A DNA stretch of 64,000 nucleotides. It comes from Trypanosoma brucei (taxonomy: Eukaryota). The notes beneath the pieces are model-generated. The model saw nothing but the letters and a program-made list of their open reading frames with translations, was not told where the DNA came from and made no database searches. A program made the translations under genes and the position numbers. The DNA lies in contig CP000070.1 in the NCBI GenBank assembly GCA_000002445.1, positions 2,112,001-2,176,000 of the forward strand. Reading direction: 5' to 3'. This document shows, in pieces, positions 2,930 to 53,330 of this stretch. The stretch's first letter is position 1; the number at the start of each line of letters is the position of its first letter.

Positions 2930-3600
2930 ATGGGGGTCACTAAAGTTGCGTTTGCTTTCAAATGCACTTTCCTTTTATATCTGCCCACTCCCCGTGCCAC
3001 TACTGCTTGTTCCGCCCCTATTAAACGCTGCCTTGTAGCACAAGAAGCGACTACTAAAAATTCTTACGACATAAAGAATCAACGCAAAAAGGGTAAGGAT
3101 ACAGCAAAAAAAGGTTTATTGTCGTCGATGCTGCAAAGACAACTTACAGTAGCGCATACAAACTCAAATGTTGGCCCAACGGCAACACAGCGAAACAGAA
3201 CGCACAGACGCACACGTACGCATAAAATTCACGCCTCCTCTGCTACTTTTTCACATCTTCCTCTGATGCATCAACTACTTTAGGGGGCTGATGGAGTTGC
3301 AAGCCCTTGGCTCATCCTTCAGGCACGTATAGCTCAGTGGAAATTTTTTTCTTTTTTCTTTTTCTCTTGTCCGCGCAAGGAGGACGTGAGGTTTTGATTC
3401 CCAACTCGTCCGCACTTTTCTTCCCTTCTATGCATCCTTTTCATGAAGATGTTAACGTTGCCACATCGCATTTCTTCTGCCGTTTCCGGCACCTCCGATT
3501 AACGTATTCGACATGACCGACGGGTGATCAAACATACGAACTCGTAAACAAACAAACAAATAAATGAGGAAATGTCGGGCACTATCGACATGGCTTTCCC

Positions 3601-4839: not shown

Positions 4840-5790
4840 AAGTTTTACTTTGCTTCACCTCACACCCACACGCAAAAATAAAAAGAGTTCGATCGCCGCG
4901 TCAGGGGCCTTGCCTTCAAAAAAAAAAAAGACTGGTGGTGAGCTACACTGTTGGTAGCTAGTGTGCAAGTCGGTAGAAGATGAAACCGCACAGCACCCTA
5001 TACATGGGAGTACAACTCACGTTTACAATAGAGGCAAGCGAATAACAGGAAGAATCCAAACATGACCAAAAATAACTGATATAAGTGTTTCGTATATTCA
5101 CCAAATGTATCCGTACAGCGGGGTATTCGGTAATTACGGGGGAAAAGCAACCGCATGTGTGTGCGTGCGGCAAAAGATGACGCCCCCTCCGATAAACGTG
5201 ACCCATATATATCAAATTATAAGGTGGCATTTCGACAGCTCACGAGCACAGCAAAAGGAGACCGCAAGAAATCAACAAAAAAAGCAAAGGAAAAGCTCGC
5301 ACTCTTCACCCCCCCCAAAAAAAAATACAATGAGATCACTACACACCATTCGCCACAAAAATTTGGCAGCCACCACAGGCGGAAGGAAGCTCCAACTTTA
5401 CATCCCCCCATCACGGTTTAGTTCCATGCTCCGCTGCTGCATCGTAGGCTACAAAATTTTTATACGTTTGTGTCTTCAATCGAACCCCTCGCCTGTTACG
5501 CACAAATTTACCACACAGACAGACACAAGTGTATACATGTATACATTACATGCAACGCCCGCCATTTCCTTTGGCCCATTTTCATCGTTCACACCTTTGC
5601 AAATATCACGACCACATTACCCTCTTTTTCTTCATCACCTCTCCCTTTTCAGGCTATGCGTTCCGCCATGTACTTTGGCATCCTTTCTTCCGTTCGCCTG
5701 TCTATGTTCCACTCTGCGACCGTGGTTCAAAATGTTTCGCATCATTAACTTTCCCCCCTTCACCCCAACAGCTGCACCGCCACTCTCCAT

Positions 5791-7137
5791 TCAGATCAAC
5801 GCCATGCGTTCGACTAGGAAAGCTGCAGCACCATAACTCAAAAACATCAAGACGAGAAGGGCGGTTAACGGAATGCCCTTTTGATTCTTCACGGCAGCGA
5901 CGGCGGACGTCGCGGGGGGAATGCGCATTATCACATCCGCTACAGCCGTACGGCGGCACCCCACTGAGCTCTCACCAGGAATTCCGTTCATTGCTTCGGT
6001 GCCAGTGCCTGCTGGTGAGGCGATGTTATTACTACCCCCACCCATCCCCGGATCGGCTTCTGGCGTTTTCATTTGCGAGATACTGGCTGCCTCTTCAGGG
6101 TGGATGCGGGGCCCACTGCGCAAAGCTTTAATGCCAAACTTCAGCGCCTGCAATTCGCCACCTCCGGCGGAGCTGGTGGGACCGGCAGCTGCACCATCAT
6201 TGTTAGTTGCACACGCTGGATCCCGTCGGAGCCGGTCACTTAACTTTCTGTGAATCATAGAGGTTACAAGTCGTGCATTCGGTGGTACAACCACCTGCTC
6301 CTCCTCATGACGTTCACTACTTCGATGGCTACCACTGTTGACGCTACTGGCGGTGCGCTGGACCTCATCACTGCTAATGGCACGGTTGTGTGCCCTGTGA
6401 CTCCTATTCTTGTCACTGTTGTTTCTCACAGCGCTGCCGTAGGCATCAGCCACAGCAGCCCCACTGTTGCAGTGCTTGTTGTCGTTACTAATAGTCATTG
6501 CAGTGGCCGTCGTCGAGGCATTGCTTGTAGCGGTTCCTGAGGCTTCATCACCTCCATCATTATGACTATGGTCGCTGAACCCTTCCCCCCTGCGGCCCTG
6601 CGTCTCATGCAGAGCCCTAACAACACCTCTCGTGTACGCTCGCAGGAACACTGTAGGACCTTGTGTTGCCTTTAGTTTACCTTCCGACACTTGCTCCCAC
6701 AACTCTCGTGCTGCCGTCTCAACGGTATTGGAACCCCTTCTATGAGGTCGTGAGAGTTCCTGAGTTAGGTGCTCGTGTGTTGCGGCGTCGGGCACGACGA
6801 GAAGGTACTCAATTGCAAAGCGGTCGCTATTATCCCTCCGCAGTGACGGTGGTGGCGGCTCTAATGGGTCGTCAGACTGCGGCCGAAGTCCGAAAGTAAT
6901 CGAAACAGCTGGTGGTTGTGGAGGTTTGCGACCGCTGTCATCGCTCACTAAGATGGTTCCATACCGTGGCACGATGTAGAACTTGTGTGGATTAGAGGCC
7001 TTGACCTTGAAAAGGACCACGCTGCGTGGCTGCTGAGCCGAGGCGGTGGCTGGGGCCCGCCACGTAAGAGTAACGATATTGTCCACAGACTCACCATCCG
7101 GAAAGTACAGACCGCTGCAGGACGCCACCAGTGCCAT
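5791..7137 (-). CDS. MSP-domain (VAP/VAMP-associated-protein-like) tail-anchored membrane protein
   Basis: The N-terminal ~125 aa carry MSP-domain signatures (VVLFKVKASNPHKFYIVPRYGTILVSD..., compare VAP KVKTTAPRRYCVRPNSG). A long Ser/Ala-rich disordered middle follows. There is a single C-terminal transmembrane helix (LTALLVLMFLSYGAAAFLV) seven residues from the stop, typical of a tail-anchored VAP. Confidence 0.6.
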   Translation of the reverse strand: MALVASCSGLYFPDGESVDNIVTLTWRAPATASAQQPRSVVLFKVKASNPHKFYIVPRYGTILVSDDSGRKPPQPPAVSITFGLRPQSDDPLEPPPPSLRRDNSDRFAIEYLLVVPDAATHEHLTQELSRPHRRGSNTVETAARELWEQVSEGKLKATQGPTVFLRAYTRGVVRALHETQGRRGEGFSDHSHNDGGDEASGTATSNASTTATAMTISNDNKHCNSGAAVADAYGSAVRNNSDKNRSHRAHNRAISSDEVQRTASSVNSGSHRSSERHEEEQVVVPPNARLVTSMIHRKLSDRLRRDPACATNNDGAAAGPTSSAGGGELQALKFGIKALRSGPRIHPEEAASISQMKTPEADPGMGGGSNNIASPAGTGTEAMNGIPGESSVGCRRTAVADVIMRIPPATSAVAAVKNQKGIPLTALLVLMFLSYGAAAFLVERMALI

Positions 7138-7982
7138 TTTTAAGAAGCATGCTTAAGACGAAGGGAAAGAATAATGCGAACACAAATTAATGAGCACCAG
7201 TGTAAACATATGTTGGTACGTGCGCGGCAAACATCAGCGTAGATATGCGCTTACATGGCTGTTTGAAGGAACACAAAAGGAAAGGCGTCAGCACAAATGC
7301 AGGTTGGACAAAGAGTGTGTAGACCGGTTAGGAAGTACCGCTTCGCAACATTAAGATGAAGGGCCCTGTGTGGAAGGCACCGGTCAAAGGGGAAGGGATA
7401 GAGCAGCGGCAAGCTTCAACTCAACATAAACCCAAGCGGCTGCACACAGTGACAAAATATTCACCAGCCCCCTCAAGTAAACACTTCACATGGGTAGAGA
7501 AGCGGGCAGCCTCATATCTCGTTCAAAATAGTTACAGAAACAATAGGATGGTGCAACAGAAGGCGATTCAAGAGGGGTCGCTGCCTGTTCGCTTTTTTCC
7601 CCGTGACCACAGTGGAAGTAACCTGACAGCTGGACACGGAACGACGACATCCGATAGCAGCGTTTCCCTCTTCACCATTTCCATACAAACTTCATCAACA
7701 GCACTTATTGCCAACATAGGTTAAATGCACCACTTCAAGTAGCGTCCGCAAACAACATCGACCTTCAGTCGACAGGAGGGGAAACTGGGGAGGTACCTGC
7801 CAGTAGTTGGATCCCACCCATTTGAGCGATCCGCTACATGCCAGTGTTAACTCACAAGAACGTGACTGTACCTGTGTTGTCCTATATTCCCTCACTTCAA
7901 AGAGGGGAAAAAAGGGAGGAACTGCTGCAAAGAAAAGAAAAGGAGAGAACAACAAGAAAACAAACGGTCGGTTCACTGTTAT

Positions 7983-7984
<2 letters not shown>

Positions 7985-8020
<36 letters not shown>
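7985..8020. repeat. (AC)18 dinucleotide microsatellite in the intergenic region
   Basis: Perfect acacac... run read directly from the sequence, between the MSP-domain gene and CRK2. This is a typical trypanosomatid intergenic microsatellite. Confidence 0.95.
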
Positions 8021-8022
<2 letters not shown>

Positions 8023-8946
8023 CTGCTCCGCTTCGTGGTGTTCGTGTTTTCCCATTTAATTTAGCCATCACTGGAGCTCATTGTGCATTGTTGCGGTGTG
8101 GCCGCTAGTCACTCATCGAAGACACTGCAAGGCTAACCAAAAGCTCACTAAAACGTGTAGATACTTATGACATACGCTGTATTCAAGGGGAAACTAATAC
8201 ACTCTCTATGGACAGATGCATACATATATAGAAATAAACAAATATACGATCTTTCATCCACCACCTTTCGTTTCCTCTCTTCTTTTCATCTGACTGCTCC
8301 GCAGCAGTCTCCATCGCTCACCGCGTCTTCTTTTTCAAACCCCTCACCATCCTTTCGCCCTGATTTGCCGGCCCCCAGGTCAGATTTGTGAGAGCGAAGG
8401 AAGATAAGCAAATGAACAAGCCAATAACCCCCTGATTCTTTGACCGGTACGCATGCTTGTGCATGCTCCGGTCCAAGCATGAGGGACATCATCCGCAACT
8501 CAGTAAACGCAGACGCACGCAATGATGTGATATCCGTGTGTAACGACACAGACTCATTTACGTACGCCCTTGTAATCTATACATCATCCGGAGTCTGGGA
8601 TTAGCGTTGGGAGTATGACAAACGAAGAGATAGCAATACAAGAAAAGGTTTGCGTGTCAGCGCATCACCTCCCCCTTCCCAAACCAGGAAGGCCAACACC
8701 CCCCTCCGATGTTAAACCGCGATTCCACCTCCTTTCCCCTAACTTTGCGTTGTCCTTACTTTTCCTTTTCTCTATCTTTTTTCCACTCCGCACGAAACTT
8801 TATAAGCTATCTCTTCACGGCCATTTCGAATCCTCAGCCATGCCGTTTCCCCTCGACAACTCTTCCTCAACCTATCCACAAAGGCAGGCGTATACACAAA
8901 GTGCCCGTCCATCTCTTCATAAAGTCGTACTGTTTCCCACCACTGC

Positions 8947-9984
8947 TTAAGCTCCGTTGAACCGCATCAACTTTTCCACTTCTTCCTCACGCACCTCATC
9001 AAAGTATGAGTGTTGAAGAGCCTCATAAGCGGTTATACGTTCCCTCGGGTTGTAGCACAGCATGCGCCGCAGTAAATCTACACCGTCGTCGTCCAACGCG
9101 GGAACTGCAGTGCGCAGTGGCTTCGCGGTCCACCGCGGGAAGTTAACGTTGTGGTGGGGTAGCGATGTGACGCCGCGCCAAGTTGCCTCCGTCGGTGTGC
9201 CGAGCAACTGGAATATGGAAAAGAGCTGATTGATGGCGGTATCCCCCGCGAAGAGCGACCTGCGACGGGCAAGTTCAGCAAAGACACACCCCATCGACCA
9301 CACATCCACAGCGGGGAGGTACTGTTTGTCCCCAAGGAGCACCTCGGGGGCACGGTACCACAGCGTCATAACCTCCGTTGTGTATGTCTGCAGGGGCACA
9401 CGGAAGGCACGACCAAGTCCAAAATCGGCAAGTTTCACGACAGACTCCTTGCGGTCAATAAGAATATTGCTTGGCTTAATGTCACGGTGGACGAAGCGGC
9501 GACTGTGGCACTCATGCAAGCCAAGAAGCAGCTGAAACATGATACGACGAAGCTTGCCGCCAACGAAGGCGGTGTTCCGTTGCTTCAGCATCCCTTGCAA
9601 GTCTTGCTCCATGTATTCAAATATGAGCAACAGCTTCGCCTCATGCAGTACCACATCGAGAAGCCGTACCACGTATGGGTGATTCAGTTCGCGTAGCAGT
9701 GATACCTCGCGGACGGCGGTGGAAGGTACGCCGCCGTCGTTTACGATAAGCGGGATCCGCTTCATAGCTACAGTGCGGCCGGTAAAGTTGTCGTGGCACT
9801 TGTACACAATACCGTAGGAACCTTCACCAACCTTCTCTATTCGGCTATACCGGTCCGGGGTGGACGTACCTCGGAGCGGGGCGGGGCGCAGCGAGCGCGG
9901 CACGAAAGAAGCAGGGCCAGCAGAAGGAAGTGGTCGCAGCGAACCATCACATGCCGTCTGTCCTTCCTGCACCTGCACCTGCAT
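8947..9984 (-). CDS. CRK2: CDC2-related protein kinase with a PSTAVRE cyclin-binding motif and a ~45-aa N-terminal extension (CRK2-type)
   Basis: GEGSYGIVYK glycine loop, AMK lysine, PSTAVREVSLLREL (PSTAIRE variant), HRDIKPSNILI catalytic loop, DFG, WYRAPE and the CDK-type C-terminus. The Q/P/S-rich N-terminal extension before the kinase core matches the extension described for trypanosome CRK2. Confidence 0.85.
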   Translation of the reverse strand: MQVQVQEGQTACDGSLRPLPSAGPASFVPRSLRPAPLRGTSTPDRYSRIEKVGEGSYGIVYKCHDNFTGRTVAMKRIPLIVNDGGVPSTAVREVSLLRELNHPYVVRLLDVVLHEAKLLLIFEYMEQDLQGMLKQRNTAFVGGKLRRIMFQLLLGLHECHSRRFVHRDIKPSNILIDRKESVVKLADFGLGRAFRVPLQTYTTEVMTLWYRAPEVLLGDKQYLPAVDVWSMGCVFAELARRRSLFAGDTAINQLFSIFQLLGTPTEATWRGVTSLPHHNVNFPRWTAKPLRTAVPALDDDGVDLLRRMLCYNPRERITAYEALQHSYFDEVREEEVEKLMRFNGA

Positions 9985-11778: not shown

Positions 11779-14700
11779 TTATCGCACTTCGGAAAGTGAC
11801 GCAACCCACTTGGCGGCATCCCCTACCATCTCCTCCAACAGATTTTCAAGAGCATGACCTAACACCAACTGCGTGATTCCTGCACGGCGACTGTCCATGC
11901 CGAGTGTACCGGCACGACTTCCTGCATAGCACGGCGATCCCAGAGACCTTTGAGTCCCAGAATTCCCCAGACCATCTTCTCCACCTACCGCCAAAAGCGA
12001 TGCAGACGCTGAAGATGATAAGGCCCCATTACCGTCGTTACGCTCGAAAAGATTCTCGCGCAACCGCGCCTCACAGTAAAAGTCCTCCGCATTGTTGGTG
12101 CCCTTGCGCACCAGCTCTGTATAATGGTATGCAAGAAATCGAATATCACTGGGTTGTAGCCTCCCAAAGAGGCACTGTGGGGAGACGAGGCCAGCCGACC
12201 GCGACAGAGCCTCCTCTGAGGATAGAAAGGCTTCCTCATACCAAACGAACTCGTCCAGTCGCTGCAACTTCTCCCTTGAGGCCACTGTGATATAGTCGGA
12301 GGCTAGCCTTTCAGCCAAAGCACTGAGGCCCGCACGCCATTCTCCGGACAGCCCCCCCTCCCCCATCGCCGCAGCGGCAACCGAAATAATACTTTGGCTT
12401 AAAGTGCTCTCAATTGTTGAATAGGAAAGCAGACCGGGATGCGCTAAAGCCTCCAATGCCGTCCCCGCTCCCTCTACCAAGTAGTTGATAACAGAATCTA
12501 CCATGAACGCAGTGAACCGCTTCTCACAATTTCCAGCGTGCGCACTATACAGCAAAGAGGGGTCTGAAGGCGTAACCGTACCACTGTGCTCACCTTGCTT
12601 TTCAACCAAACGATTGGCACCACCCTCAGCAATAGACAACTCTACCACTGAATATATAGAAGGTGACTCACTAGAACCACTGATTACGCAATCAACAGAC
12701 GCAACACCAGCACCATTTAATTCGCCGACACAACTAAGCGTACCCTGGGTACCACAGTCGGGGCTTGGCAATGCACAGCTTCCGTACAACGTAGAGCTCC
12801 CGCCATAATAAAACTCAGAAGTTCCGGAAGAACAAACATCGTTATTAATCAGCATAGCAACGGTACTTATTCCGCTCGACAACACGTATTCCGTCACAGC
12901 CTCAGCAGCACCAACACAAGCTTCACCTCCACGAAAAGTATCCAGCAACGACATAGACATCACAGATTCCAACTCACCGCTATAGGCCACATCATCAACG
13001 ACACAACCAAAGCTACAAACGCCACCACAACAAACAGATGTAGCATCTTCGAAGCACTCTGATATCAAATTTACACACAAAGAACGCAAGCAATCAATAA
13101 TAAAAAGCTTATCACCAAACACTGCCGCCCCTTCACCATCAACCCCCAACTGTTCATCCTCTTCAGCCTTGAGACGAGATTCCTCTTCAGCCTTGAAACG
13201 AGCTTCCTCTTCAGCCTTGAGACGAGCTTCCTCTTCAGCCTTGAGACGAGCTTCCTCTTCAGCCTTGAAACGAGCTTCCTCTTCGGCCTTGAGACGAGCT
13301 TCCTCTTCAGCCTTGAAACGAGCTTCCTCTTCAGCCTTGAGACGAGCTTCCTCTTCAGCCTTGAAACGAGCTTCCTCTTCAGCCTTGAGACGAGCTTCCT
13401 CTTCAGCTTCTAGACGGGCGTCTTCCATTGCACGCGCACTGGCAATATGCCGTGAGAAGGCATCATTAAGGCTTTGCCTTATTATGTCGTCAGAGAGGGC
13501 TCTCACACGATCGATAATGTGTTCTTTACCTTCTAAGAGAGTAACAGCCTCTTCTTCAGCCTTGAGACGAGCTTCCTCTTCAGCCTTGAAACGAGCTTCC
13601 TCTTCAGCCTTGAGACGAGCTTCCTCTTCAGCCTTGACACGAGCCTCCTCTTCAGTTTTGAGACGAGCTTCCTCTTCAGCCTTGAAACGAGCTTCCTCTT
13701 CAGCCTTGAGACGAGCTTCCTCTTCAGCTTCTAGACGGGCGTCTTCCATTGCACGCGCACTGGCAATATGCCGTGAGAAGGCATCATTAAGGCTTTGCCT
13801 TATTATGTCGTCAGAGAGGGCTCTCACAAGATCGATAATGTGTTCTTTACCTTCTAAGAGAGTAACAGCCTCTTCTTCAGCCTTGACACGAGCCTCCTCT
13901 TCAGCCTTGAGACGAGCTTCCTCTTCAGCCTTGAAACGAGCTTCCTCTTCAGCCTTGAGACGAGCTTCCTCTTCAGCCTTGAAACGAGCTTCCTCTTCAG
14001 CCTTGAGACGAGCTTCCTCTTCAGCCTTGAAACGAGCTTCCTCTTCAGCCTTGACACGAGCTTCCTCTTCAGCCTTGAAACGAGCTTCCTCTTCAGCCTT
14101 GAAACGAGCTTCCTCTTCAGCTTCTAGACGGGCGTCTTCCATTGCACGCGCACTGGCAATATGCCGTGAGAAGGCATCATTAAGGCTTTGCCTTATTATG
14201 TCGTCAGAGAGGGCTCTCACACGATCGATAATGTGTTCTTTACCTTCTAAGAGAGTAACAGCCCCTTCTTCAGCCTTGACACGAGCTTCCTCTTCAGCCT
14301 TGAAACGAGCTTCCTCTTCAGCCTTGACACGAGCTTCCTCTTCAGCCTTGAAACGAGCTTCCTCTTCAGCCTTGAGACGAGCCTCCTCTTCAGCCTTGAG
14401 ACGAGCTTCCTCTTCAGCCTTGAGACGAGCTTCCTCTTCAGCCTTGACACGAGCTTCCTCTTCAGCTTCTAGACGGGCGTCTTCCATTGCACGCGCACTG
14501 GCAATATGCCGTGAGAAGGCATCATTAAGGCTTTGCCTTATTATGTCGTCAGAGAGGGCTCTCACACGATCGATAATGTGTTCTTTACCTTCTAAGAGAG
14601 TAACAGCCTCTTCTTCAGCCTTGACACGAGCCTCCTCTTCAGCCTTGAAACGAGCTTCCTCTTCAGCCTTGAAACGAGCTTCCTCTTCAGCCTTGAAACG

Positions 14701-17700
14701 AGCTTCCTCTTCAGCCTTGAGACGAGCTTCCTCTTCAGCCTTGAGACGAGCTTCCTCTTCAGCCTTGAGACGAGCTTCCTCTTCAGCCTTGAAACGAGCC
14801 TCTTCTTCAGCCTTGACACGAGCCTCCTCTTCAGTTTTGAGACGAGCTTCCTCTTCAGCCTTGAAACGAGCTTCCTCTTCAGCTTCTAGACGGGCGTCTT
14901 CCATTGCACGCGCACTGGCAATATGCCGTGAGAAGGCATCATTAAGGCTTTGCCTTATTATGTCGTCAGAGAGGGCTCTCACACGATCGATAATGTGTTC
15001 TTTACCTTCTAAGAGAGTAACAGCCCCTTCTTCAGCCTTGACACGAGCTTCCTCTTCAGCCTTGAAACGAGCTTCCTCTTCAGCCTTGACACGAGCTTCC
15101 TCTTCAGCCTTGAAACGAGCTTCCTCTTCAGCCTTGAGACGAGCTTCCTCTTCAGCCTTGAGACGAGCTTCCTCTTCAGCCTTGAAACGAGCTTCCTCTT
15201 CAGCTTCTAGACGGGCGTCTTCCATTGCACGCGCACTGGCAATATGCCGTGAGAAGGCATCATTAAGGCTTTGCCTTATTATGTCGTCAGAGAGGGCTCT
15301 CACACGATCGATAATGTGTTCTTTACCTTCTAAGAGAGTAACAGCCTCTTCTTCAGCCTTGACACGAGCTTCCTCTTCAGCCTTGAAACGAGCTTCCTCT
15401 TCAGCCTTGAGACGAGCTTCCTCTTCAGCCTTGAGACGAGATTCCTCTTCAGCCTTGAGACGAGCTTCCTCTTCAGCCTTGAAACGAGCTTCCTCTTCAG
15501 CCTTGAGACGAGCTTCCTCTTCAGCCTTGAGACGAGCTTCCTCTTCAGCTTCTAGACGGGCGTCTTCCATTGCACGCGCACTGGCAATATGCCGTGAGAA
15601 GGCATCATTAAGGCTTTGCCTTATTATGTCGTCAGAGAGGGCTCTCACACGATCGATAATGTGTTGTTTACCTTCTAAGAGAGTAACAGCCTCTTCTTCG
15701 GCCTTGAGACGAGCTTCCTCTTCAGCCTTGAGACGAGCTTCCTCTTCAGCCTTGAAACGAGCTTCCTCTTCAGCCTTGAAACGAGCTTCCTCTTCAGCCT
15801 TGAGACGAGATTCCTCTTCAGCCTTGAGACGAGCTTCCTCTTCAGCCTTGAGACGAGCTTCCTCTTCAGCCTTGAGACGAGCTTCCTCTTCAGCCTTGAG
15901 ACGAGATTCCTCTTCAGCCTTGAGACGAGCTTCCTCTTCAGCCTTGAGACGAGCTTCCTCTTCAGCCTTGAGACGAGCTTCCTCTTCAGCTTCTAGACGG
16001 GCGTCTTCCATTGCACGCGCACTGGCAATATGCCGTGAGAAGGCATCATTAAGGCTTTGCCTTATTATGTCGTCAGAGAGGGCTCTCACACGATCGATAA
16101 TGTGTTCTTTACCTTCTAAGAGAGTAACAGCCTCTTCTTCAGCCTTGACACGAGCTTCCTCTTCAGCTTTGATTCGTGCCTCTTCTTCAGCTTTGATTCG
16201 TGCCTCTTCTTCAGCTTTGATTCGTGCCTCTTCTTCAGCTTTGATTCGTGCCTCTTCTTCAGCTTTGATTCGTGCCTCTTCTTCAGCTCTGATTCGTGCC
16301 TCTTCTTCAGCTTTGATTCGTGCCTCTTCTTCAGCTCTGAGTCTCGCCTCTTCTTCAGCTCTGAGTCTCGCCTCTTCTTCAGCTTTGATTCGTGCCTCTT
16401 CTTCAGCTTTGATTCGTGCCTCTTCTTCAGCTCTGATTCGTGCCTCTTCTTCAGCTCTGATTCGTGCCTCTTCTTCAGCTCTGAGTCTCGCCTCTTCTTC
16501 AGCTCTGACTCTCGCCTCTTCTTCAGCTTTGAGTCTCGCCTCTTCTTCAGCTCTGATTCGTGCCTCTTCTTCAGCTTTGATTCGTGCCTCTTCTTCAGCT
16601 CTGATTCGTGCCTCTTCTTCAGCTCTGATTCGTGCCTCTTCTTCAGCTCTGAGTCTCGCCTCTTCTTCAGCTCTGACTCTCGCCTCTTCTTCAGCTCTGA
16701 GTCTCGCCTCTTCTTCAGTTCTGAGTCTCGCCTCTTCTTCAGCTTTGATTCGTGCCTCTTCTTCAGCTTTGATTCGTGCCTCTTCTTCAGCTCTGAGTCT
16801 CGCCTCTTCTTCAGCTCTGACTCTCGCCTCTTCTTCAGCTCTGAGTCTCGCCTCTTCTTCAGCTCTGAGTCTCGCCTCTTCTTCAGCTCTGAGTCTCGCC
16901 TCTTCTTCAGCTTTGATTCGTGCCTCTTCTTCAGCTCTGATTCGTGCCTCTTCTTCAGCTCTGATTCGTGCCTCTTCTTCAGCTTTGATTCGTGCCTCTT
17001 CTTCAGCTCTGATTCGTGCCTCTTCTTCAGCTCTGATTCGTGCCTCTTCTTCAGCTCTGAGTCTCGCCTCTTCTTCGAGAGATGGAGCGTGTTGAGAGGC
17101 GTGAATCGTAATTTCCTTTTGTTTTGTGTATGCGTGCTGTGCTGTGGGGTAGTTTGTTTCAATCCGTGAGGTAGTGTGAGTTTGTTTTCGTTCGATTTCC
17201 GTTCGATCGCTAAAATTTTGGCTTTGTGTTTTAGAGCTGTAACTTTTTTCTTCAAAATGTTTTGTTGGTTCGTGTGTTTCTTTTGCTTGTATAGCGAGGG
17301 TTTGTGTTGCTTTGTTTTCTGTTGGTGCCGGGTTTGTGTTTTGTATACTTTGAGTATGTCTTGTGATTGTCGTTCTTTCAGCAGCTGGTTGTCGCGTTAT
17401 GAGCGAGATGGTGTTGAAAGCAGACGGAGCTTCTGTATTGATATTGTTGTGGTTGTTACTTTTCTTGTAGTGTTTGTGTGCTTGTTCATCGTACTTGTTG
17501 TGCCGCTGCTCGTGGATTACTTTTTTCTGTGCGTCTTGTATTATACTTGATGAAAAGCAGTGACTTGTCTCTAGGTTATTACCAATCCCTGTACTTCGAG
17601 GTGGGCACCATGGGTCTGTGAATAGTTTGTTGCTTTGCTGTGACAACTGCACCGACTCTCTTGCTTTGTCTGCTTGTTGCAGCCCGTGGGGACCACTTAC

Positions 17701-18372
17701 TTTTCCTGCTGATGTTGGTTGGTGGTGCAGATGTGCGCTCACATGTTGTGCTGATAGCAAGACTAGTATTTTTTCCTCTCGGAAGGAGGCTGCAATGATA
17801 AGACGCTTCTTCTCGTACTTGTGAACTATCTCGCGGCGGGTGTGTGCTTCAGCTAAGACGACTGCGAACATCGCGGATGAGTGTTTTCGTGTCTCATAAT
17901 CGTCGGAAAGCAGTGATGTTGGAGGCCTTGTGACAGAATCCCCCCTTTTTTGGTATTCCTTCGAGGACCGAGTACCCGCTATGGGGTGCTGTTCTGACAC
18001 AAAACCTGGACCTAGTTGACATCCAGTGTATGCCCGCAGTGTCGGTTGTGTGGTCTCCGTTTGGACGTCATGGCTGCTACTCCGATGGGGCTGTTGAGCG
18101 GTCGTGGTTTTGGTGTCCCGCTTCCTCTTTGAACTGGATATTGGTTCTTCAGCCGCAGCGGCACATGTCCTATCGTGGTTTCCAAGGAACGCTTTCTGCG
18201 CCTCCCTTAATCTATGAATCTCTTCTTTTAGTCCATTAAGCTCCACACGGCTTCCTCCTTCTTTTTTGAGGCGCCTAAACTCTTCTATGAGCCACCCAGT
18301 CCGCTGTATATCTTCCAAGACCGCCAACGCATTAATGCGCACGACCGCCTTATCGCGGTGGGGTGGTGGCAT
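11779..18372 (-). CDS. Giant (~2197 aa) hyper-repetitive acidic protein. It has an N-terminal low-complexity region, ~39 tandem AEEEAR[ILV][KR] octads, eight higher-order units (39-aa unique module plus variable numbers of AEEEAR[LFV]K octads) and a C-terminal ~450-aa Cys-rich non-repetitive domain.
   Basis: 6.6-kb uninterrupted ORF co-oriented with the flanking genes. The repeats are perfect at the nucleotide level (24-nt unit gctgaagaggaagctcgtctcaag and variants). The ORF continues ~1.3 kb beyond the array on each side, which argues that the minus frame is the real one. A purine-rich plus-strand patch (pyrimidine tract in sense) sits ~100 nt 5' of the first ATG. The exact N-terminus is uncertain. 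Confidence 0.75.
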   Translation of the reverse strand: MPPPHRDKAVVRINALAVLEDIQRTGWLIEEFRRLKKEGGSRVELNGLKEEIHRLREAQKAFLGNHDRTCAAAAEEPISSSKRKRDTKTTTAQQPHRSSSHDVQTETTQPTLRAYTGCQLGPGFVSEQHPIAGTRSSKEYQKRGDSVTRPPTSLLSDDYETRKHSSAMFAVVLAEAHTRREIVHKYEKKRLIIAASFREEKILVLLSAQHVSAHLHHQPTSAGKVSGPHGLQQADKARESVQLSQQSNKLFTDPWCPPRSTGIGNNLETSHCFSSSIIQDAQKKVIHEQRHNKYDEQAHKHYKKSNNHNNINTEAPSAFNTISLITRQPAAERTTITRHTQSIQNTNPAPTENKATQTLAIQAKETHEPTKHFEEKSYSSKTQSQNFSDRTEIERKQTHTTSRIETNYPTAQHAYTKQKEITIHASQHAPSLEEEARLRAEEEARIRAEEEARIRAEEEARIKAEEEARIRAEEEARIRAEEEARIKAEEEARLRAEEEARLRAEEEARLRAEEEARVRAEEEARLRAEEEARIKAEEEARIKAEEEARLRTEEEARLRAEEEARVRAEEEARLRAEEEARIRAEEEARIRAEEEARIKAEEEARIRAEEEARLKAEEEARVRAEEEARLRAEEEARIRAEEEARIRAEEEARIKAEEEARIKAEEEARLRAEEEARLRAEEEARIKAEEEARIRAEEEARIKAEEEARIKAEEEARIKAEEEARIKAEEEARIKAEEEARVKAEEEAVTLLEGKEHIIDRVRALSDDIIRQSLNDAFSRHIASARAMEDARLEAEEEARLKAEEEARLKAEEEARLKAEEESRLKAEEEARLKAEEEARLKAEEEARLKAEEESRLKAEEEARFKAEEEARFKAEEEARLKAEEEARLKAEEEAVTLLEGKQHIIDRVRALSDDIIRQSLNDAFSRHIASARAMEDARLEAEEEARLKAEEEARLKAEEEARFKAEEEARLKAEEESRLKAEEEARLKAEEEARFKAEEEARVKAEEEAVTLLEGKEHIIDRVRALSDDIIRQSLNDAFSRHIASARAMEDARLEAEEEARFKAEEEARLKAEEEARLKAEEEARFKAEEEARVKAEEEARFKAEEEARVKAEEGAVTLLEGKEHIIDRVRALSDDIIRQSLNDAFSRHIASARAMEDARLEAEEEARFKAEEEARLKTEEEARVKAEEEARFKAEEEARLKAEEEARLKAEEEARLKAEEEARFKAEEEARFKAEEEARFKAEEEARVKAEEEAVTLLEGKEHIIDRVRALSDDIIRQSLNDAFSRHIASARAMEDARLEAEEEARVKAEEEARLKAEEEARLKAEEEARLKAEEEARFKAEEEARVKAEEEARFKAEEEARVKAEEGAVTLLEGKEHIIDRVRALSDDIIRQSLNDAFSRHIASARAMEDARLEAEEEARFKAEEEARFKAEEEARVKAEEEARFKAEEEARLKAEEEARFKAEEEARLKAEEEARFKAEEEARLKAEEEARVKAEEEAVTLLEGKEHIIDLVRALSDDIIRQSLNDAFSRHIASARAMEDARLEAEEEARLKAEEEARFKAEEEARLKTEEEARVKAEEEARLKAEEEARFKAEEEARLKAEEEAVTLLEGKEHIIDRVRALSDDIIRQSLNDAFSRHIASARAMEDARLEAEEEARLKAEEEARFKAEEEARLKAEEEARFKAEEEARLKAEEEARFKAEEEARLKAEEEARLKAEEEARFKAEEESRLKAEEDEQLGVDGEGAAVFGDKLFIIDCLRSLCVNLISECFEDATSVCCGGVCSFGCVVDDVAYSGELESVMSMSLLDTFRGGEACVGAAEAVTEYVLSSGISTVAMLINNDVCSSGTSEFYYGGSSTLYGSCALPSPDCGTQGTLSCVGELNGAGVASVDCVISGSSESPSIYSVVELSIAEGGANRLVEKQGEHSGTVTPSDPSLLYSAHAGNCEKRFTAFMVDSVINYLVEGAGTALEALAHPGLLSYSTIESTLSQSIISVAAAAMGEGGLSGEWRAGLSALAERLASDYITVASREKLQRLDEFVWYEEAFLSSEEALSRSAGLVSPQCLFGRLQPSDIRFLAYHYTELVRKGTNNAEDFYCEARLRENLFERNDGNGALSSSASASLLAVGGEDGLGNSGTQRSLGSPCYAGSRAGTLGMDSRRAGITQLVLGHALENLLEEMVGDAAKWVASLSEVR
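13140..17090. repeat. ~3.95-kb coding tandem-repeat array with a 24-nt unit, in two sequence families and hierarchical organisation
   Basis: Block 16140-17090 holds ~39 units of the gcctcttcttcagc[tc]t[tc]ga[tg]t[c]... family. Blocks 13165-16140 use the cttgagacgagcttcctcttcagc family, interrupted eight times (near 13410, 13730, 14120, 14465, 14885, 15205, 15545, 15985) by an identical ~120-nt unique module. Confidence 0.9.
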
Positions 18373-20558: not shown

Positions 20559-21006
20559 TCAAAACTTAAGTTCAAGTGAGTATGATATTAAGTAAAAATA
20601 AACGGCAAGATGTGAGAAAAGTGCAAATAAGGCACACCAGTGGTCGTCACTAAAAATCCGTCCTTGACAATCGGCAACGTTACCTCCCTAGGGGCAAAAG
20701 CGGTGACCGCAGTTGTAGTGAGCATCGAAGCCGACAGAGCGAAACGCACTTCTCTACTGTTCAGAGGTAAGTACACGAAACAACAACAACCACCAAACAC
20801 ACCGCCTCCCGCGATATATATTCCACCATATGATCAAAGAATGTTAACGCCTTACTAACCATAAAGAAAGGACCGTCCATGTGTTCATCCGGTCCGTAAC
20901 CAAAAACCACCACGTGTACAATTCTCTGGAGTTTTATACCTAAAAGTGAAAATAAAAGTGCTACCGGAGGCTAACCTCATTCACTAACAAAGACCTGCTA
21001 GCTAAA

Positions 21007-22761
21007 CTACACTGCCCGCTTACAAGAGTAGAGTAGGTTTTTCAGTGCTTTCACATCCTTCTCGCTCTTGATGGCATTCATTTTCGACTGGTAATGCTGC
21101 AGAAACAGGTGGGTATGTTGTTTCAACATTTCTTCAAGCTCCCCGTGCAAGATTGGACTATTCAAAGTGAAGAAGCGGATCAGGTAGTTCAGCTCCTGTA
21201 CATACATGTAGAAGAACTTATTCTTCGCAGTACCGTACATGATTCCCAGATCCCTGTGGACAAGCAGGTACTCGTAGAACTTTACGTACTGAACCTTCAC
21301 GTCGTCCAAGTAACCATTCAGACACGCGTACAGAGACACAATTGCATTCATGAAATACGAGGGTTGTTTCTGGTTGAACAGCGCGACGAATCGGGCACCG
21401 CGGATCATGGGGATCGTTTGTACCTGCTGGCCGCCCACCGAGTCGGCGGCGAGCTTGCGGTACTCCGCAAGAATCCCCTTCAGCTTTCCGGCAACTCCTT
21501 TCATCGCCGCGTTCTGCGCGGAGGAGCCCACACGTGACACAGATAAACCGATGTTCACTGCAGGACGCTGGCCACCAGTAAACAGTTTCGTATCGAGGTA
21601 GATTTGACCGTCAGTAATGGAAATTACATTCGTCACAATATACGCAGTCACGTCGTTAGACAGCGTCTCCACAATGGGAAGCGCTGTCACGGAGCCACCA
21701 CCCTTTCCAGGGGAAAGCATAGCCGCGCGTTCCAGGAGCCGTGAATGCAGGTAGAAGACATCACCCGGATATGCCTCACGGCCCGGTGGACGACGAAGGA
21801 GCAGCGAAATCTGACGGTATGCGACAGCCTGTTTAGAGAGATCATCATACACGCAGAGACAGTGGCGACCACGGTTCATGAAGTACTCGCCCATCGTGAC
21901 GCCAGCGTACGGAGCCAGGTACTGGAGACCAGCAGGTTCTGCAGCCGTGGCAGCCATTACAGTTGTGTACCGCAGTGCACCGTATGACTGCAGAAGGCGA
22001 TGAATGCGCGCGACGTTCGAGCACCGTTGCCCAATCGAGACGTAAATGGAAATGACCGCATTCTTGGATAAAATCTGTTGGTTGATACGCACCTGGTTGA
22101 TAATGGTCGAGACAGCGATGGAGGTCTTGCCCGTCTGGCGGTCGCCCACAATTAATTCACGTTGACCACGGCCAATCGGAATCATGGTGTCGACAGCTTT
22201 GAAACCGGTTAACAGATTATAGTTCACAGGCGAGCGGGACACGATATTGGGTGCACCAGTGTCTACTTTACCCAACGTGCTGTCCAGCAGGCGGCGACTG
22301 CGGGTAACGAGCCCCACCGGAACCTCGTGGCCGAGTGGGTTCACGACCTTCCCCAGCACACCGGCTCCCACAGGAATGTGCAGTAGCTGACCTGTTGCCA
22401 TTACCTTCTGACCAGACTGCACTTCCGTTATATTGTCCATCAGAATGATACCGATACGGCCATCTTTCTCCAGGTTGAATACCAATCCAGCGGCAAATGT
22501 TGTGGGGCTCACCTGAATCTGAATGATGGTGTTGTACGCCACACCGGGATTCCCAGGCGCGGGGATTAGAGTGGCAATGGTGCCATCGATCGAGTGAACA
22601 TAGCCAATCATCTCAGTTGTTTTAAAGAATGACTTCTGAGCAGAAGATGTGCTGCTTGTGGTGCTGGCACCTGCCGGTGCCGTTGCTGCGCTCGCTAGGG
22701 GGCAGGCCAGGGCACAGCGTGACGCCAACCCGGAGGCAAACTTGGAACCAAAGCGACGCAT
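21007..22761 (-). CDS. Mitochondrial F1-ATP synthase alpha subunit, tandem copy 1
   Basis: 584 aa. Walker A GDRQTGKT, the ATP-synthase alpha signature region and an N-terminal presequence MRRFGSKFASGLASR. The six-frame ORF runs 31 codons further upstream (to 22854), but the second copy fixes the start at the MRRFGSKF methionine. Confidence 0.9.
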   Translation of the reverse strand: MRRFGSKFASGLASRCALACPLASAATAPAGASTTSSTSSAQKSFFKTTEMIGYVHSIDGTIATLIPAPGNPGVAYNTIIQIQVSPTTFAAGLVFNLEKDGRIGIILMDNITEVQSGQKVMATGQLLHIPVGAGVLGKVVNPLGHEVPVGLVTRSRRLLDSTLGKVDTGAPNIVSRSPVNYNLLTGFKAVDTMIPIGRGQRELIVGDRQTGKTSIAVSTIINQVRINQQILSKNAVISIYVSIGQRCSNVARIHRLLQSYGALRYTTVMAATAAEPAGLQYLAPYAGVTMGEYFMNRGRHCLCVYDDLSKQAVAYRQISLLLRRPPGREAYPGDVFYLHSRLLERAAMLSPGKGGGSVTALPIVETLSNDVTAYIVTNVISITDGQIYLDTKLFTGGQRPAVNIGLSVSRVGSSAQNAAMKGVAGKLKGILAEYRKLAADSVGGQQVQTIPMIRGARFVALFNQKQPSYFMNAIVSLYACLNGYLDDVKVQYVKFYEYLLVHRDLGIMYGTAKNKFFYMYVQELNYLIRFFTLNSPILHGELEEMLKQHTHLFLQHYQSKMNAIKSEKDVKALKNLLYSCKRAV

Positions 22762-23096
22762 CTTCTCTTGAATCACTAGTGAGGGGGAAAAAAAAGCAAG
22801 CGTGCCACCAATAGCTTCATTAGTAAATAGAGTACCATAGCGTAGTGAAAACAAAACGACTCCGCATATTTGTTTACAGCCGCAACCACCAACGCCGCAC
22901 TAAAATAATGAACCGTCAACCTCTCAGTGACAACAAAAACACGCACACACGCACACAAACACACATAACCAAGTAAGAACAAAAAAACAAAATTCCCTAT
23001 ACCATCGCCACTTGTTCCTTTCGTTATACCTAAAAGTGAAAATAAAAGTGCTACCGGAGGCTAACCTCATTCACTAACAAAGACCTGCTAGCTAAA

Positions 23097-24851
23097 CTAC
23101 ACTGCCCGCTTACAAGAGTAGAGTAGGTTTTTCAGTGCTTTCACATCCTTCTCGCTCTTGATGGCATTCATTTTCGACTGGTAATGCTGCAGAAACAGGT
23201 GGGTATGTTGTTTCAACATTTCTTCAAGCTCCCCGTGCAAGATTGGACTATTCAAAGTGAAGAAGCGGATCAGGTAGTTCAGCTCCTGTACATACATGTA
23301 GAAGAACTTATTCTTCGCAGTACCGTACATGATTCCCAGATCCCTGTGGACAAGCAGGTACTCGTAGAACTTTACGTACTGAACCTTCACGTCGTCCAAG
23401 TAACCATTCAGACACGCGTACAGAGACACAATTGCATTCATGAAATACGAGGGTTGTTTCTGGTTGAACAGCGCGACGAATCGGGCACCGCGGATCATGG
23501 GGATCGTTTGTACCTGCTGGCCGCCCACCGAGTCGGCGGCGAGCTTGCGGTACTCCGCAAGAATCCCCTTCAGCTTTCCGGCAACTCCTTTCATCGCCGC
23601 GTTCTGCGCGGAGGAGCCCACACGTGACACAGATAAACCGATGTTCACTGCAGGACGCTGGCCACCAGTAAACAGTTTCGTATCGAGGTAGATTTGACCG
23701 TCAGTAATGGAAATTACATTCGTCACAATATACGCAGTCACGTCGTTAGACAGCGTCTCCACAATGGGAAGCGCTGTCACGGAGCCACCACCCTTTCCAG
23801 GGGAAAGCATAGCCGCGCGTTCCAGGAGCCGTGAATGCAGGTAGAAGACATCACCCGGATATGCCTCACGGCCCGGTGGACGACGAAGGAGCAGCGAAAT
23901 CTGACGGTATGCGACAGCCTGTTTAGAGAGATCATCATACACGCAGAGACAGTGGCGACCACGGTTCATGAAGTACTCGCCCATCGTGACGCCAGCGTAC
24001 GGAGCCAGGTACTGGAGACCAGCAGGTTCTGCAGCCGTGGCAGCCATTACAGTTGTGTACCGCAGTGCACCGTATGACTGCAGAAGGCGATGAATGCGCG
24101 CGACGTTCGAGCACCGTTGCCCAATCGAGACGTAAATGGAAATGACCGCATTCTTGGATAAAATCTGTTGGTTGATACGCACCTGGTTGATAATGGTCGA
24201 GACAGCGATGGAGGTCTTGCCCGTCTGGCGGTCGCCCACAATTAATTCACGTTGACCACGGCCAATCGGAATCATGGTGTCGACAGCTTTGAAACCGGTT
24301 AACAGATTATAGTTCACAGGCGAGCGGGACACGATATTGGGTGCACCAGTGTCTACTTTACCCAACGTGCTGTCCAGCAGGCGGCGACTGCGGGTAACGA
24401 GCCCCACCGGAACCTCGTGGCCGAGTGGGTTCACGACCTTCCCCAGCACACCGGCTCCCACAGGAATGTGCAGTAGCTGACCTGTTGCCATTACCTTCTG
24501 ACCAGACTGCACTTCCGTTATATTGTCCATCAGAATGATACCGATACGGCCATCTTTCTCCAGGTTGAATACCAATCCAGCGGCAAATGTTGTGGGGCTC
24601 ACCTGAATCTGAATGATGGTGTTGTACGCCACACCGGGATTCCCAGGCGCGGGGATTAGAGTGGCAATGGTGCCATCGATCGAGTGAACATAGCCAATCA
24701 TCTCAGTTGTTTTAAAGAATGACTTCTGAGCAGAAGATGTGCTGCTTGTGGTGCTGGCACCTGCCGGTGCCGTTGCTGCGCTCGCTAGGGGGCAGGCCAG
24801 GGCACAGCGTGACGCCAACCCGGAGGCAAACTTGGAACCAAAGCGACGCAT
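23097..24851 (-). CDS. Mitochondrial F1-ATP synthase alpha subunit, tandem copy 2 (protein identical to copy 1)
   Basis: Same 584-aa translation as copy 1. Even the spurious antisense ORFs are duplicated exactly, so the DNA of the two copies is identical across the CDS. Confidence 0.92.
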   Translation of the reverse strand: MRRFGSKFASGLASRCALACPLASAATAPAGASTTSSTSSAQKSFFKTTEMIGYVHSIDGTIATLIPAPGNPGVAYNTIIQIQVSPTTFAAGLVFNLEKDGRIGIILMDNITEVQSGQKVMATGQLLHIPVGAGVLGKVVNPLGHEVPVGLVTRSRRLLDSTLGKVDTGAPNIVSRSPVNYNLLTGFKAVDTMIPIGRGQRELIVGDRQTGKTSIAVSTIINQVRINQQILSKNAVISIYVSIGQRCSNVARIHRLLQSYGALRYTTVMAATAAEPAGLQYLAPYAGVTMGEYFMNRGRHCLCVYDDLSKQAVAYRQISLLLRRPPGREAYPGDVFYLHSRLLERAAMLSPGKGGGSVTALPIVETLSNDVTAYIVTNVISITDGQIYLDTKLFTGGQRPAVNIGLSVSRVGSSAQNAAMKGVAGKLKGILAEYRKLAADSVGGQQVQTIPMIRGARFVALFNQKQPSYFMNAIVSLYACLNGYLDDVKVQYVKFYEYLLVHRDLGIMYGTAKNKFFYMYVQELNYLIRFFTLNSPILHGELEEMLKQHTHLFLQHYQSKMNAIKSEKDVKALKNLLYSCKRAV

Positions 24852-25234
24852 ACTTTGTGCAGGTGGTGTTGCTTAGATGACTTGGGACCCTAGGAAAAGT
24901 GTTAGAAATGAAAATATTATTTTAAAAATGATTTTGGTAGACATATATCGGCAATACGAGGTGTGTGCATGCTGCCGTTGCAGTTGTAGGCCCATGTTCA
25001 TATGGGTTTGTATTTTAATACAGCGTGTACGATACGTCATACTTTTTTCTCTAACTTTCGGCTCCATTTTGTTCTGTAAATATGTTTTTCAATGCCTTGC
25101 ATCAATTTACACAAACCGTAAGCCTTTGTATTATTGCTTCCAAAACTTTTACCCCCACCACACAACAGGGCAGCAGTCACCACAAACGCTAAGAAATGCG
25201 TGTTCCCGTAATGTTTGGTCCATCAAGCATCAAT

Positions 25235-53328: not shown

Positions 53329-53330
53329 AT

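What the first reader, a model, noticed from the sequence alone, without database searches (positions are those of the whole stretch)
20933..24853. Two ATP synthase alpha copies share an identical CDS and 70 nt of proximal 3' flank but have unrelated 5' UTRs and distal 3' UTRs
The duplication unit is sharply bounded. Identity starts 70 nt downstream of the stop codon and ends at the ATG. Each copy therefore carries its own 5' flank (its own spliced-leader acceptor context) and its own distal 3' UTR. Gene conversion seems to maintain the coding sequence while the regulatory flanks diverge. This would allow the two copies to be regulated differently after transcription. That matters in an organism where F1Fo-ATPase abundance and direction change sharply between life-cycle stages and all regulation is at the mRNA level.
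Basis: partly seen in the sequence, partly recalled or inferred. Interest (0 to 1): 0.6.

Follow-up and report, generated by a model that had tools for sequence, protein, structure and literature searches.

The report
Known tandem ATP synthase alpha genes
These are the two already-annotated, identical, side-by-side copies of the mitochondrial ATP synthase alpha gene of Trypanosoma brucei (Tb927.7.7420/7430); recombination most likely keeps their coding sequences identical while their untranslated flanks differ, which is an ordinary pattern in trypanosomes.

Summary
An exact 1828-nt direct repeat (20934-22761 = 23024-24851, minus-strand genes) covers the whole 1755-nt coding sequence plus 73 nt (not 70) after the stop codon. 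It ends exactly at the A of the ATG. The 262-nt spacer resembles neither outer flank.

The window is T. brucei TREU927 chromosome 7. The genes are Tb927.7.7420 (downstream copy) and Tb927.7.7430 (upstream copy), published as "two identical ORFs" in 2009. Copy-specific poly(A) sites were published in 2010, giving 3'UTRs of 292 and 179 nt.

Other trypanosomatids carry 2-3 copy arrays of this gene at the same syntenic locus:
- Copies within a species are 99.7-100% identical; orthologues are 75-95% identical.
- The spacers are older than speciation (T. cruzi/T. rangeli; L. mexicana/L. donovani).
- The outer identity edges lie at or near the ends of the coding sequence (T. cruzi -2/0, T. melophagium -3/+1).

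In T. brucei itself the age of the duplication could not be dated.

Different regulation of the two copies remains untested: published half-lives pool both copies. The different UTRs follow automatically from each copy's position in the array. Low interest; already known.

The parts
23097..24851 (-). Upstream copy U of F1-ATPase alpha (Tb927.7.7430), CDS of 584 aa
   Evidence: ORF. 100% identical over 584 aa to T. brucei ATP synthase alpha (PDB 8ap6, 6f5d). Gene ID from Kolev Table S13: PAS 2134918 + 3'UTR 179 = 2135097 = window 23097 + 2,112,000.
21007..22761 (-). Downstream copy D of F1-ATPase alpha (Tb927.7.7420), CDS of 584 aa, nucleotide-identical to U
   Evidence: c1 == c2. Gene ID from Kolev: PAS 2132715 + 292 = 2133007 = window 21007 + 2,112,000.
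23024..23096 (-). Proximal 73 nt of the 3'UTR of U, identical to that of D
   Evidence: No unusual RNA fold (z = 0.67). Identical in T. b. gambiense.
20934..21006 (-). Proximal 73 nt of the 3'UTR of D, identical to that of U
22918..23023 (-). U-specific distal 3'UTR (106 nt; U-rich with a (UG)n-like tract), ending at the published predominant poly(A) site (window 22918)
   Evidence: Kolev 2010 Table S13; sequence.
20715..20933 (-). D-specific distal 3'UTR (219 nt), ending at the published predominant poly(A) site (window 20715)
   Evidence: Kolev 2010 Table S13; sequence.
22762..22917 (-). Inter-mRNA part of the spacer. It holds the T8C5 polypyrimidine tract (about 22778-22800), the predicted AG splice acceptor (22777-22776) and the predicted 14-nt 5'UTR of D (22775-22762).
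   Evidence: Read from the sequence and scored (80% pyrimidine in the 30 nt before the AG). The 141 nt between the poly(A) site of U and this AG is, from my own knowledge, a typical distance. The acceptor is predicted, not mapped.
24852..24914 (-). Predicted 5'UTR of U (24852-24889, 38 nt), AG acceptor (24891-24890) and polypyrimidine tract (about 24892-24914); unrelated to the equivalent region of D
   Evidence: Predicted, not mapped.

Best explanation
This is the annotated two-copy, head-to-tail array of the nuclear gene for mitochondrial F1-ATPase subunit alpha (Tb927.7.7430 upstream, Tb927.7.7420 downstream) in a minus-strand polycistron of T. brucei chromosome 7.

The array sits at a locus (NGP1-type GTPase, a ~140-aa ORF, alpha xN, an ETR/ADH-like reductase) that carries 2-3 alpha copies in many trypanosomatids. 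Recombination between the copies (gene conversion and/or unequal crossing-over) keeps them identical. Homogenisation can only act where both copies are still homologous. The outer flanks therefore drifted apart until the identity block shrank to the sequence that selection holds constant: the CDS, here plus 73 nt.

Each copy is trans-spliced at its own acceptor and polyadenylated at its own site, giving two mRNAs with the same ORF. U has a predicted 5'UTR of about 38 nt and a 179-nt 3'UTR. D has a predicted 5'UTR of about 14 nt and a 292-nt 3'UTR.

The most likely primary benefit is gene dosage for a very abundant mRNA. The UTR differences follow from position in the array. Whether they also give copy-specific regulation is open.

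Shown: the repeat and its edges, the gene identity, the two poly(A) sites, and concerted evolution in sister lineages. Inferred: that the same process operates in T. brucei, the erosion-to-CDS model, the splice acceptors, and the dosage rationale.
For: - Exact 1828-nt repeat ending at the ATG and at +73; flanks and spacer unrelated.
- Protein 100% identical to T. brucei alpha. [quoted passage not shown]
- Copy-specific poly(A) sites and 3'UTRs of 292 and 179 nt (PMC2936537 Table S13). The joint abundance, 71.6 RNAs per cell in procyclics, sits among ribosomal-protein and enolase mRNAs in the excerpt of Table S6 returned.
- The spacer has a strong polypyrimidine tract plus an AG 14 nt before the ATG of D and 141 nt after the poly(A) site of U. 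It looks like an evolved intergenic region, not junction filler.
- Conserved synteny with variable copy number: T. melophagium 3, T. cruzi 3, T. rangeli at least 3, L. mexicana 2, L. donovani 3, L. sp. Ghana 3, Porcisia 3.
- CDS identity is 99.7-100% within species against 75-95% between species (T. cruzi, about 99.7% across repeat units).
- T. cruzi and T. rangeli spacers align end to end at about 70% identity (score 127, z = 18), while their CDSs are 87.8% identical.
- The L. mexicana spacer aligns with the L. donovani spacers at about 85%. Their outer edges are conserved (-196/+44 against -204/+45), while the CDSs are 95.8% identical between species and 99.9-100% within.
- Outer identity edges lie on the CDS ends: T. 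cruzi -2/0, T. melophagium -3/+1, T. brucei 0/+73.
- U and D share the same state at all 3 synonymous sites that differ from T. b. gambiense.
Against: - No variation exists between U and D, so no conversion tract can be seen directly.
- The T. brucei spacer could not be aligned to any other species. Neither could its orthologous outer flanks, so that test is uninformative.
- The T. b. gambiense DAL972 assembly and both T. vivax assemblies show one copy. That fits a young T. brucei-specific duplication as well as assembly collapse or copy loss.
- Nothing explains why 73 nt of 3' flank stay identical in T. brucei while the 5' edge sits exactly at the ATG. No conserved motif or fold was found in those 73 nt.
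Confidence: 0.72

Rival explanations
1. Adaptive sub-functionalisation. The two UTR sets are kept different by selection so that the two alpha mRNAs are stabilised or translated differently in bloodstream and procyclic forms. This is an additional layer and does not exclude the main explanation.
For: - Distinct mapped 3'UTRs: 106 nt unique to U (U/GU-rich) and 219 nt unique to D.
- Alpha mRNA is strongly stage-regulated through stability.
- Precedent: Leishmania HSP70-I/II share the CDS but differ in 3'UTR and in regulation (PMC3185273).
Against: - No copy-resolved data were found. Fadda 2014 reports one value under Tb927.7.7420.
- Nilsson 2010 Table S2 lists only 7420 as 'down', but that list is an intersection with a microarray study and says nothing about 7430.
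- Nothing for either gene appears in the Jensen 2014 or Vasquez 2014 supplements.
- Different UTRs are an automatic result of array position.
- No UA(U)6 or AUUUA motif distinguishes the two UTRs.
Confidence: 0.2
2. Recent, T. brucei-specific duplication. Its junction was formed by non-homologous joining with about 262 nt of inserted DNA. Identity then simply reflects youth, with no gene conversion.
For: - 100% identity over 1828 nt, including 73 non-coding nt.
- One copy in the T. b. gambiense DAL972 assembly, with exactly the 5' flank of U and the 3' flank of D.
- One copy in T. vivax.
Against: - The inserted DNA would by luck have to supply a strong polypyrimidine tract and AG just before the ATG, and a poly(A) site at the usual distance.
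- The breakpoint would have to fall exactly at the A of the ATG.
- The same CDS-edged architecture exists in T. cruzi and T. melophagium, and spacers are demonstrably old in T. cruzi/T. rangeli and in Leishmania.
- The spacer is transcribed in T. b. rhodesiense YTat1.1.
- Identical tandem repeats are prone to collapse in whole-genome shotgun assemblies. PMC2854126 notes limits in quantifying tandem copy number and found four 'missing' isoforms among unassembled reads. T. theileri, closely related to three-copy T. melophagium, shows one copy in a gapped assembly.
Confidence: 0.12
3. Assembly artefact: the genome really holds a single copy that was duplicated in silico.
For: Perfect identity of the two copies. 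A single copy in the T. b. gambiense assembly.
Against: - Both junctions are unique sequences. The spacer carries a mapped poly(A) site supported by RNA reads from another strain.
- Two genes have been annotated and cited since 2009.
- Multi-copy arrays at the same locus occur in long-read assemblies of other species.
Confidence: 0.02

Closest known systems
T. brucei tandem gene arrays under concerted evolution (Jackson 2007, BMC Evol Biol 7:54, PMC1855330)
   Same: Head-to-tail copies in one polycistron with identical or near-identical CDS. [quoted passage not shown] This is the pattern seen here.
   Different: The arrays defined there were those with more than 3 copies (stated in PMC2854126), and the alpha pair is not mentioned. 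With only two copies there is no internal spacer pair to compare, and there is no sequence variation in which to detect conversion tracts.
Leishmania HSP70-I / HSP70-II locus (PMC3185273 and references therein)
   Same: A tandem array with shared CDS in which the last copy has an unrelated 3'UTR. The array is conserved across species.
   Different: In HSP70 the 5'UTR is shared and differential regulation has been shown by experiment (heat-shock accumulation against preferential translation). Here the 5' flanks also differ right up to the ATG, and no differential regulation has been shown.
Alpha-subunit arrays at the orthologous locus in T. cruzi, T. melophagium, T. rangeli, Leishmania spp. and Porcisia
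   Same: Same gene, same synteny, copies within a species 99.7-100% identical, and spacers unrelated to the outer flanks. Outer identity edges lie at or within a few nt of the CDS ends in Trypanosoma.
   Different: Those arrays have three copies, so their internal spacers are also homogenised. T. brucei keeps 73 shared nt after the stop, whereas T. cruzi and T. melophagium keep 0-1. Leishmaniinae keep 112-204 nt of shared 5' flank.
T. brucei ATP synthase subunit c isoforms (PMC3542316)
   Same: Another ATP synthase subunit encoded by more than one nuclear gene in T. brucei.
   Different: The subunit c genes have IDs on three different chromosomes and are described as three distinct isoforms (title). 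They are not an identical tandem pair.

Membership tests
F1-ATPase subunit alpha (ATP-synt_ab family), T. brucei Tb927.7.7420/7430 | Protein sequence identical to the experimentally characterised T. brucei subunit alpha | tested here: met
   584/584 identity to PDB 8ap6 chain A1, and to 6f5d over the mature part. Pfam PF00006 and PF00306 are on record for the identical protein.
F1-ATPase subunit alpha (ATP-synt_ab family), T. brucei Tb927.7.7420/7430 | Genomic position matches the annotated genes | tested here: met
   Published poly(A) coordinates and 3'UTR lengths for both gene IDs give stop-codon coordinates exactly 2090 nt apart. Both map to the window with a single offset of 2,112,000.
Tandem gene array under concerted evolution | Head-to-tail copies on one strand within one transcription unit | tested here: met
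Tandem gene array under concerted evolution | Paralogues within a species more alike than orthologues between species | tested here: met
   100% within T. brucei against 99.8% to T. b. gambiense and 77-80% to other species. The same pattern holds in T. melophagium, L. mexicana and Porcisia, in T. cruzi (about 99.7% across repeat units) and in L. donovani.
Tandem gene array under concerted evolution | The duplication predates speciation (orthologous spacer in a sister species) | tested here: inconclusive
   Met for T. cruzi/T. rangeli and for L. mexicana/L. donovani. For T. brucei no informative comparator was available. T. congolense has no contig on record, and the T. b. gambiense assembly has one copy. 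Distant species do not align even in the orthologous outer flanks.
Tandem gene array under concerted evolution | Detectable conversion tracts or mosaic variation among copies | not testable with these tools
   The two copies have no differences. Population long-read data would be needed.
Array-position UTR isoforms with different regulation (HSP70-I/II type) | Same ORF carried on mRNAs with different UTRs | tested here: met
   Poly(A) sites at window 22918 and 20715. The different splice-acceptor contexts are predicted only.
Array-position UTR isoforms with different regulation (HSP70-I/II type) | The isoforms differ in stability, translation or stage profile | not tested
   No copy-resolved data in the papers and supplements searched. 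The Siegel 2010 supplements are not held.

The most novel reading that the evidence does not exclude
The array position of each alpha copy is functionally used. The short U/GU-rich 3'UTR of Tb927.7.7430 and the longer 3'UTR of Tb927.7.7420 would confer different stability or translation in bloodstream and insect stages. Homogenisation limited to the CDS edges, also seen in T. cruzi and T. melophagium, would then be the general way trypanosomes keep one protein under several post-transcriptional programmes.
Probability: 0.15. Interest if true: 0.45.

Novelty: already known. Interest (0 to 1): 0.17.

Why it matters
It matters little beyond housekeeping. The gene pair, its identical ORFs and its two 3'UTR lengths are in the literature and databases, and CDS-identical tandem genes with position-dependent UTRs are a textbook feature of trypanosomatid genomes.

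Practical points:
- Reads in the CDS cannot be assigned to one copy, so published expression and half-life values pool both genes.
- Only 22918-23023 (U), 20715-20933 (D) and the two spliced-leader junctions are copy-specific.
- Knock-outs, tagging constructs and RNAi designed on the CDS hit both copies.

The cross-species result is a tidy illustration of concerted evolution bounded by selection: identity edges of the alpha array fall within 0-3 nt of the CDS ends in three Trypanosoma species, while the spacers are older than speciation. It is not a new principle.

Tried and rejected
- Residual similarity between the spacer and the outer flanks (local alignment against shuffles): none in T. 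brucei, T. melophagium or T. cruzi.
- Alignment of the T. brucei spacer to the spacers and flanks of other species: only a low-complexity T-run/(TG)n match to T. rangeli. Rejected as evidence of homology, because the orthologous outer flanks do not align at that distance either.
- L. mexicana against Porcisia flanks and spacers: not alignable, so uninformative.
- A conserved motif in the first ~180 nt after the stop across Trypanosoma: no robust conserved block that includes T. brucei. T. cruzi, T. rangeli and T. melophagium do share a proximal element.
- RNA fold of the shared 73 nt: not more stable than shuffles.
- Copy-resolved expression: Nilsson 2010 Table S2 lists only 7420, but the list is an intersection with a microarray study and is uninformative. 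Siegel 2010 supplements are not held. Jensen 2014 and Vasquez 2014 supplements contain neither gene ID. The Kolev splice-site tables were cut when stored and lack these genes.
- T. congolense locus via the alpha protein or the neighbouring reductase: no contig on record.
- Logan contigs carrying the neighbouring reductase, to look for an assembly-graph break at the repeat edge: they do not reach the edge; L019 starts with the spliced-leader 3' end and is a transcript contig.
- The T. b. gambiense genome paper's Table 1 of single-versus-multi-copy differences does not list this locus.
- cDNA or retroposition origin: rejected, because identity starts at the ATG rather than at a spliced-leader site and there is no poly(A) remnant.
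- tRNA scan and inverted-repeat search: nothing relevant.


Full report
**1. The observation**

The region holds two minus-strand ORFs of 584 aa inside a single exact direct repeat, 20934-22761 = 23024-24851 (1828 nt, offset 2090).

- The upstream copy (U) has its ATG at 24851 and its TAG at 23099-23097.
- The downstream copy (D) has its ATG at 22761 and its TAG at 21009-21007.
- The listed 615-aa ORF is only a TTG extension of D.
- Identity ends exactly at the A of the ATG. Base -1 is T in U and G in D.
- The 262-nt spacer between the repeats (22762-23023) is no more similar to the 5' flank of U or to the D-specific 3' flank than shuffled sequence is (z = 0.1-0.2).

**2. What the genes are**

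The protein is identical over all 584 residues to T. brucei ATP synthase subunit alpha (PDB 8ap6; 6f5d for the mature chain).

Kolev et al. 2010 (PMC2936537, Table S13) list the predominant poly(A) sites:

| Gene | Predominant poly(A) site (chr7) | 3'UTR |
|---|---|---|
| Tb927.7.7420 | 2132715 | 292 nt |
| Tb927.7.7430 | 2134918 | 179 nt |

The implied stop-codon positions are 2090 nt apart. Both map to the window with one offset, 2,112,000. The window is therefore TREU927 chromosome 7, 2,112,001-2,176,000 (v4 coordinates), with D = Tb927.7.7420 and U = Tb927.7.7430.

Zikova et al. [quoted passage not shown]

The poly(A) site of U (window 22918) lies inside the unique spacer. It was mapped with RNA from T. 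b. rhodesiense YTat1.1. The duplication is therefore real and is present in a second strain.

**3. Anatomy of the two mRNAs**

- U has a 179-nt 3'UTR: 73 shared nt plus 106 unique nt that are U-rich with a (UG)n-like tract.
- D has a 292-nt 3'UTR: 73 shared nt plus 219 unique nt.
- Upstream of D, a T8C5 polypyrimidine tract is followed by an AG 14 nt before the ATG and 141 nt after the poly(A) site of U.
- Upstream of U, a different pyrimidine tract is followed by an AG 38 nt before the ATG.
- These acceptors are predictions. The stored copies of the Kolev splice-site tables are cut and lack these genes.
- The shared 73 nt show no unusual fold and no motif conserved across species.

**4. Relatives**

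Synteny (NGP1-type GTPase, a ~140-aa ORF, alpha, an ADH/ETR-like reductase) is conserved across trypanosomatids, but the copy number varies.

| Species | Alpha copies |
|---|---|
| T. melophagium | 3 |
| T. cruzi (long-read assembly) | 3 |
| T. rangeli | at least 3, broken by gaps |
| L. mexicana | 2 |
| L. donovani | 3 |
| L. sp. Ghana | 3 |
| Porcisia | 3 |
| T. vivax | 1 |
| T. grayi | 1 |
| T. theileri | 1 |
| T. b. gambiense DAL972 | 1 |

T. theileri, closely related to three-copy T. melophagium, shows one copy in a gapped assembly, which suggests collapse there. In the T. b. gambiense assembly the single copy has the 5' flank of U and the 3' flank of D.

CDS identity within a species is 99.7-100%; between species it is 75-95% (T. 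cruzi).

Two species pairs allow a proper test of age:

- T. cruzi and T. rangeli spacers align end to end at about 70% identity (local score 127, z = 18), while their CDSs are 87.8% identical.
- The L. mexicana spacer aligns with both L. donovani spacers at about 85% identity. The outer identity edges are conserved (-196/+44 against -204/+45). The CDSs are 95.8% identical between species and 99.9-100% within.

In these lineages the array is therefore older than the species and the copies have been homogenised since. That is concerted evolution.

**5. The edges**

At the outer ends of the arrays, identity to the internal spacer stops as follows (5' edge relative to the ATG / 3' edge relative to the stop).

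| Species | 5' edge | 3' edge |
|---|---|---|
| T. cruzi | -2 | 0 |
| T. melophagium | -3 | +1 |
| T. brucei | 0 | +73 |
| T. rangeli | not seen | about +19 |
| L. mexicana | -196 | +44 |
| L. donovani | -204 | +45 |
| Porcisia | -112 | +77 |

Five of the seven Trypanosoma edges measured fall within 3 nt of a CDS end, in intergenic regions of about 250-450 nt. My inference is that this is not chance. Recombination can homogenise only sequence that is still homologous on both sides. The flanks at the array ends therefore drift until the identity block reaches sequence that selection keeps constant. T. cruzi copies 1 and 2 differ at codon 4 (F/L), right next to the edge, which fits such erosion.

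**6. T. brucei itself**

Direct dating failed. T. congolense has no contig on record, and the more distant species do not align even in the orthologous outer flanks.

The indirect evidence favours an old, homogenised pair over a young duplication:

- A simple tandem duplication would make every base of the spacer a copy of an outer flank, and it is not.
- The spacer has functional-looking processing signals at canonical distances.
- U and D are identical at the three synonymous sites where T. b. gambiense differs. If the copies had been separate since that split, about 3 differences would be expected in 1828 nt at the CDS rate. By my arithmetic the Poisson probability of seeing none is about 0.05.

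A recent duplication with an inserted junction cannot be excluded (about 0.12).

**7. Regulation**

Alpha mRNA is known to be stage-regulated through stability: about 17-22 min in bloodstream forms against about 199 min in procyclics (Fadda et al. 2014, Table 2, citing Brown et al. 2001). The value is reported under one gene ID for both copies.

I found no copy-resolved data. In a two-copy head-to-tail array, different outer UTRs are unavoidable. Tandem arrays in this organism are generally read as a gene-dosage device, because genes lack individual promoters (abstract of PMC1855330). The joint abundance, 71.6 RNAs per cell, sits among ribosomal-protein and enolase mRNAs in the excerpt of Table S6 returned.

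Differential regulation through the unique UTR parts is plausible by analogy with Leishmania HSP70-I/II (PMC3185273), but it is unproven.

**8. Verdict**

- The gene-conversion idea is supported by comparative evidence.
- The regulatory idea is untested.
- The object is an annotated, published gene pair of a well-known kind.
- Interest is low.

Noticed in passing
window 11779-18372 (-), repeats at 13157-17076: The large neighbouring ORF (2197 aa) contains more than 150 tandem 24-nt (8-aa) units in two blocks. In the T. b. gambiense locus the orthologous product is called at 2443 aa, so the repeat number appears to differ between subspecies.
   Followed up: partly
L001 (T. b. gambiense DAL972 chr7, FN554970.1) 6001-7755: The T. 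b. gambiense assembly has a single alpha copy joining the 5' flank of U to the 3' flank of D, with the spacer absent. The locus is not in that genome paper's table of single-versus-multi-copy differences. It is either assembly collapse or a real unequal-crossover deletion.
   Followed up: partly
L019 1-30 (Logan ERR7929164); window 20559-20566: A transcript contig starts with the 3' end of the spliced leader (CTGTACTATATTG) joined 6 nt upstream of the ATG of the ETR/ADH-like reductase gene (window ATG 20558). This gives an experimental splice site about 150 nt downstream of the poly(A) site of Tb927.7.7420.
   Followed up: partly
L017 (T. cruzi) 3443-9346: The third alpha copy is split into several short gene calls, and copy 1 reads through its stop. 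The copies differ mostly by indels (10 gap openings), which look like long-read errors rather than pseudogenisation. Copies 1 and 2 differ at codon 4 (F/L), next to the array edge.
   Followed up: partly
L006 (L. mexicana) 7981-8574 and 8675-9268: The spacer between the two L. mexicana alpha genes contains an internal perfect 594-nt direct duplication. The L. donovani spacer is about 590 nt shorter (1393 nt against 1984 nt).
   Followed up: no
window about 47100-53100: Genes up to the trans-sialidase-like ORF (44578-47073) are on the minus strand. From the RING-finger ORF (53127-54167) onward they are on the plus strand. This implies a divergent strand-switch region, a likely transcription start zone, in between. 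Few long ORFs lie in 39-44 kb and 47-53 kb.
   Followed up: no
L005 (T. rangeli), L004 (T. melophagium), L017 (T. cruzi): spacers about 50-130 nt after the stop: A proximal 3'UTR block (TTTGTTTAGG.AATAATTAGCATT.GG.GATGTA.GGA.GGAGGTCC) is conserved in the alpha spacers of T. cruzi, T. rangeli and, more weakly, T. melophagium. It is a candidate regulatory element and is not recognisable in T. brucei.
   Followed up: partly
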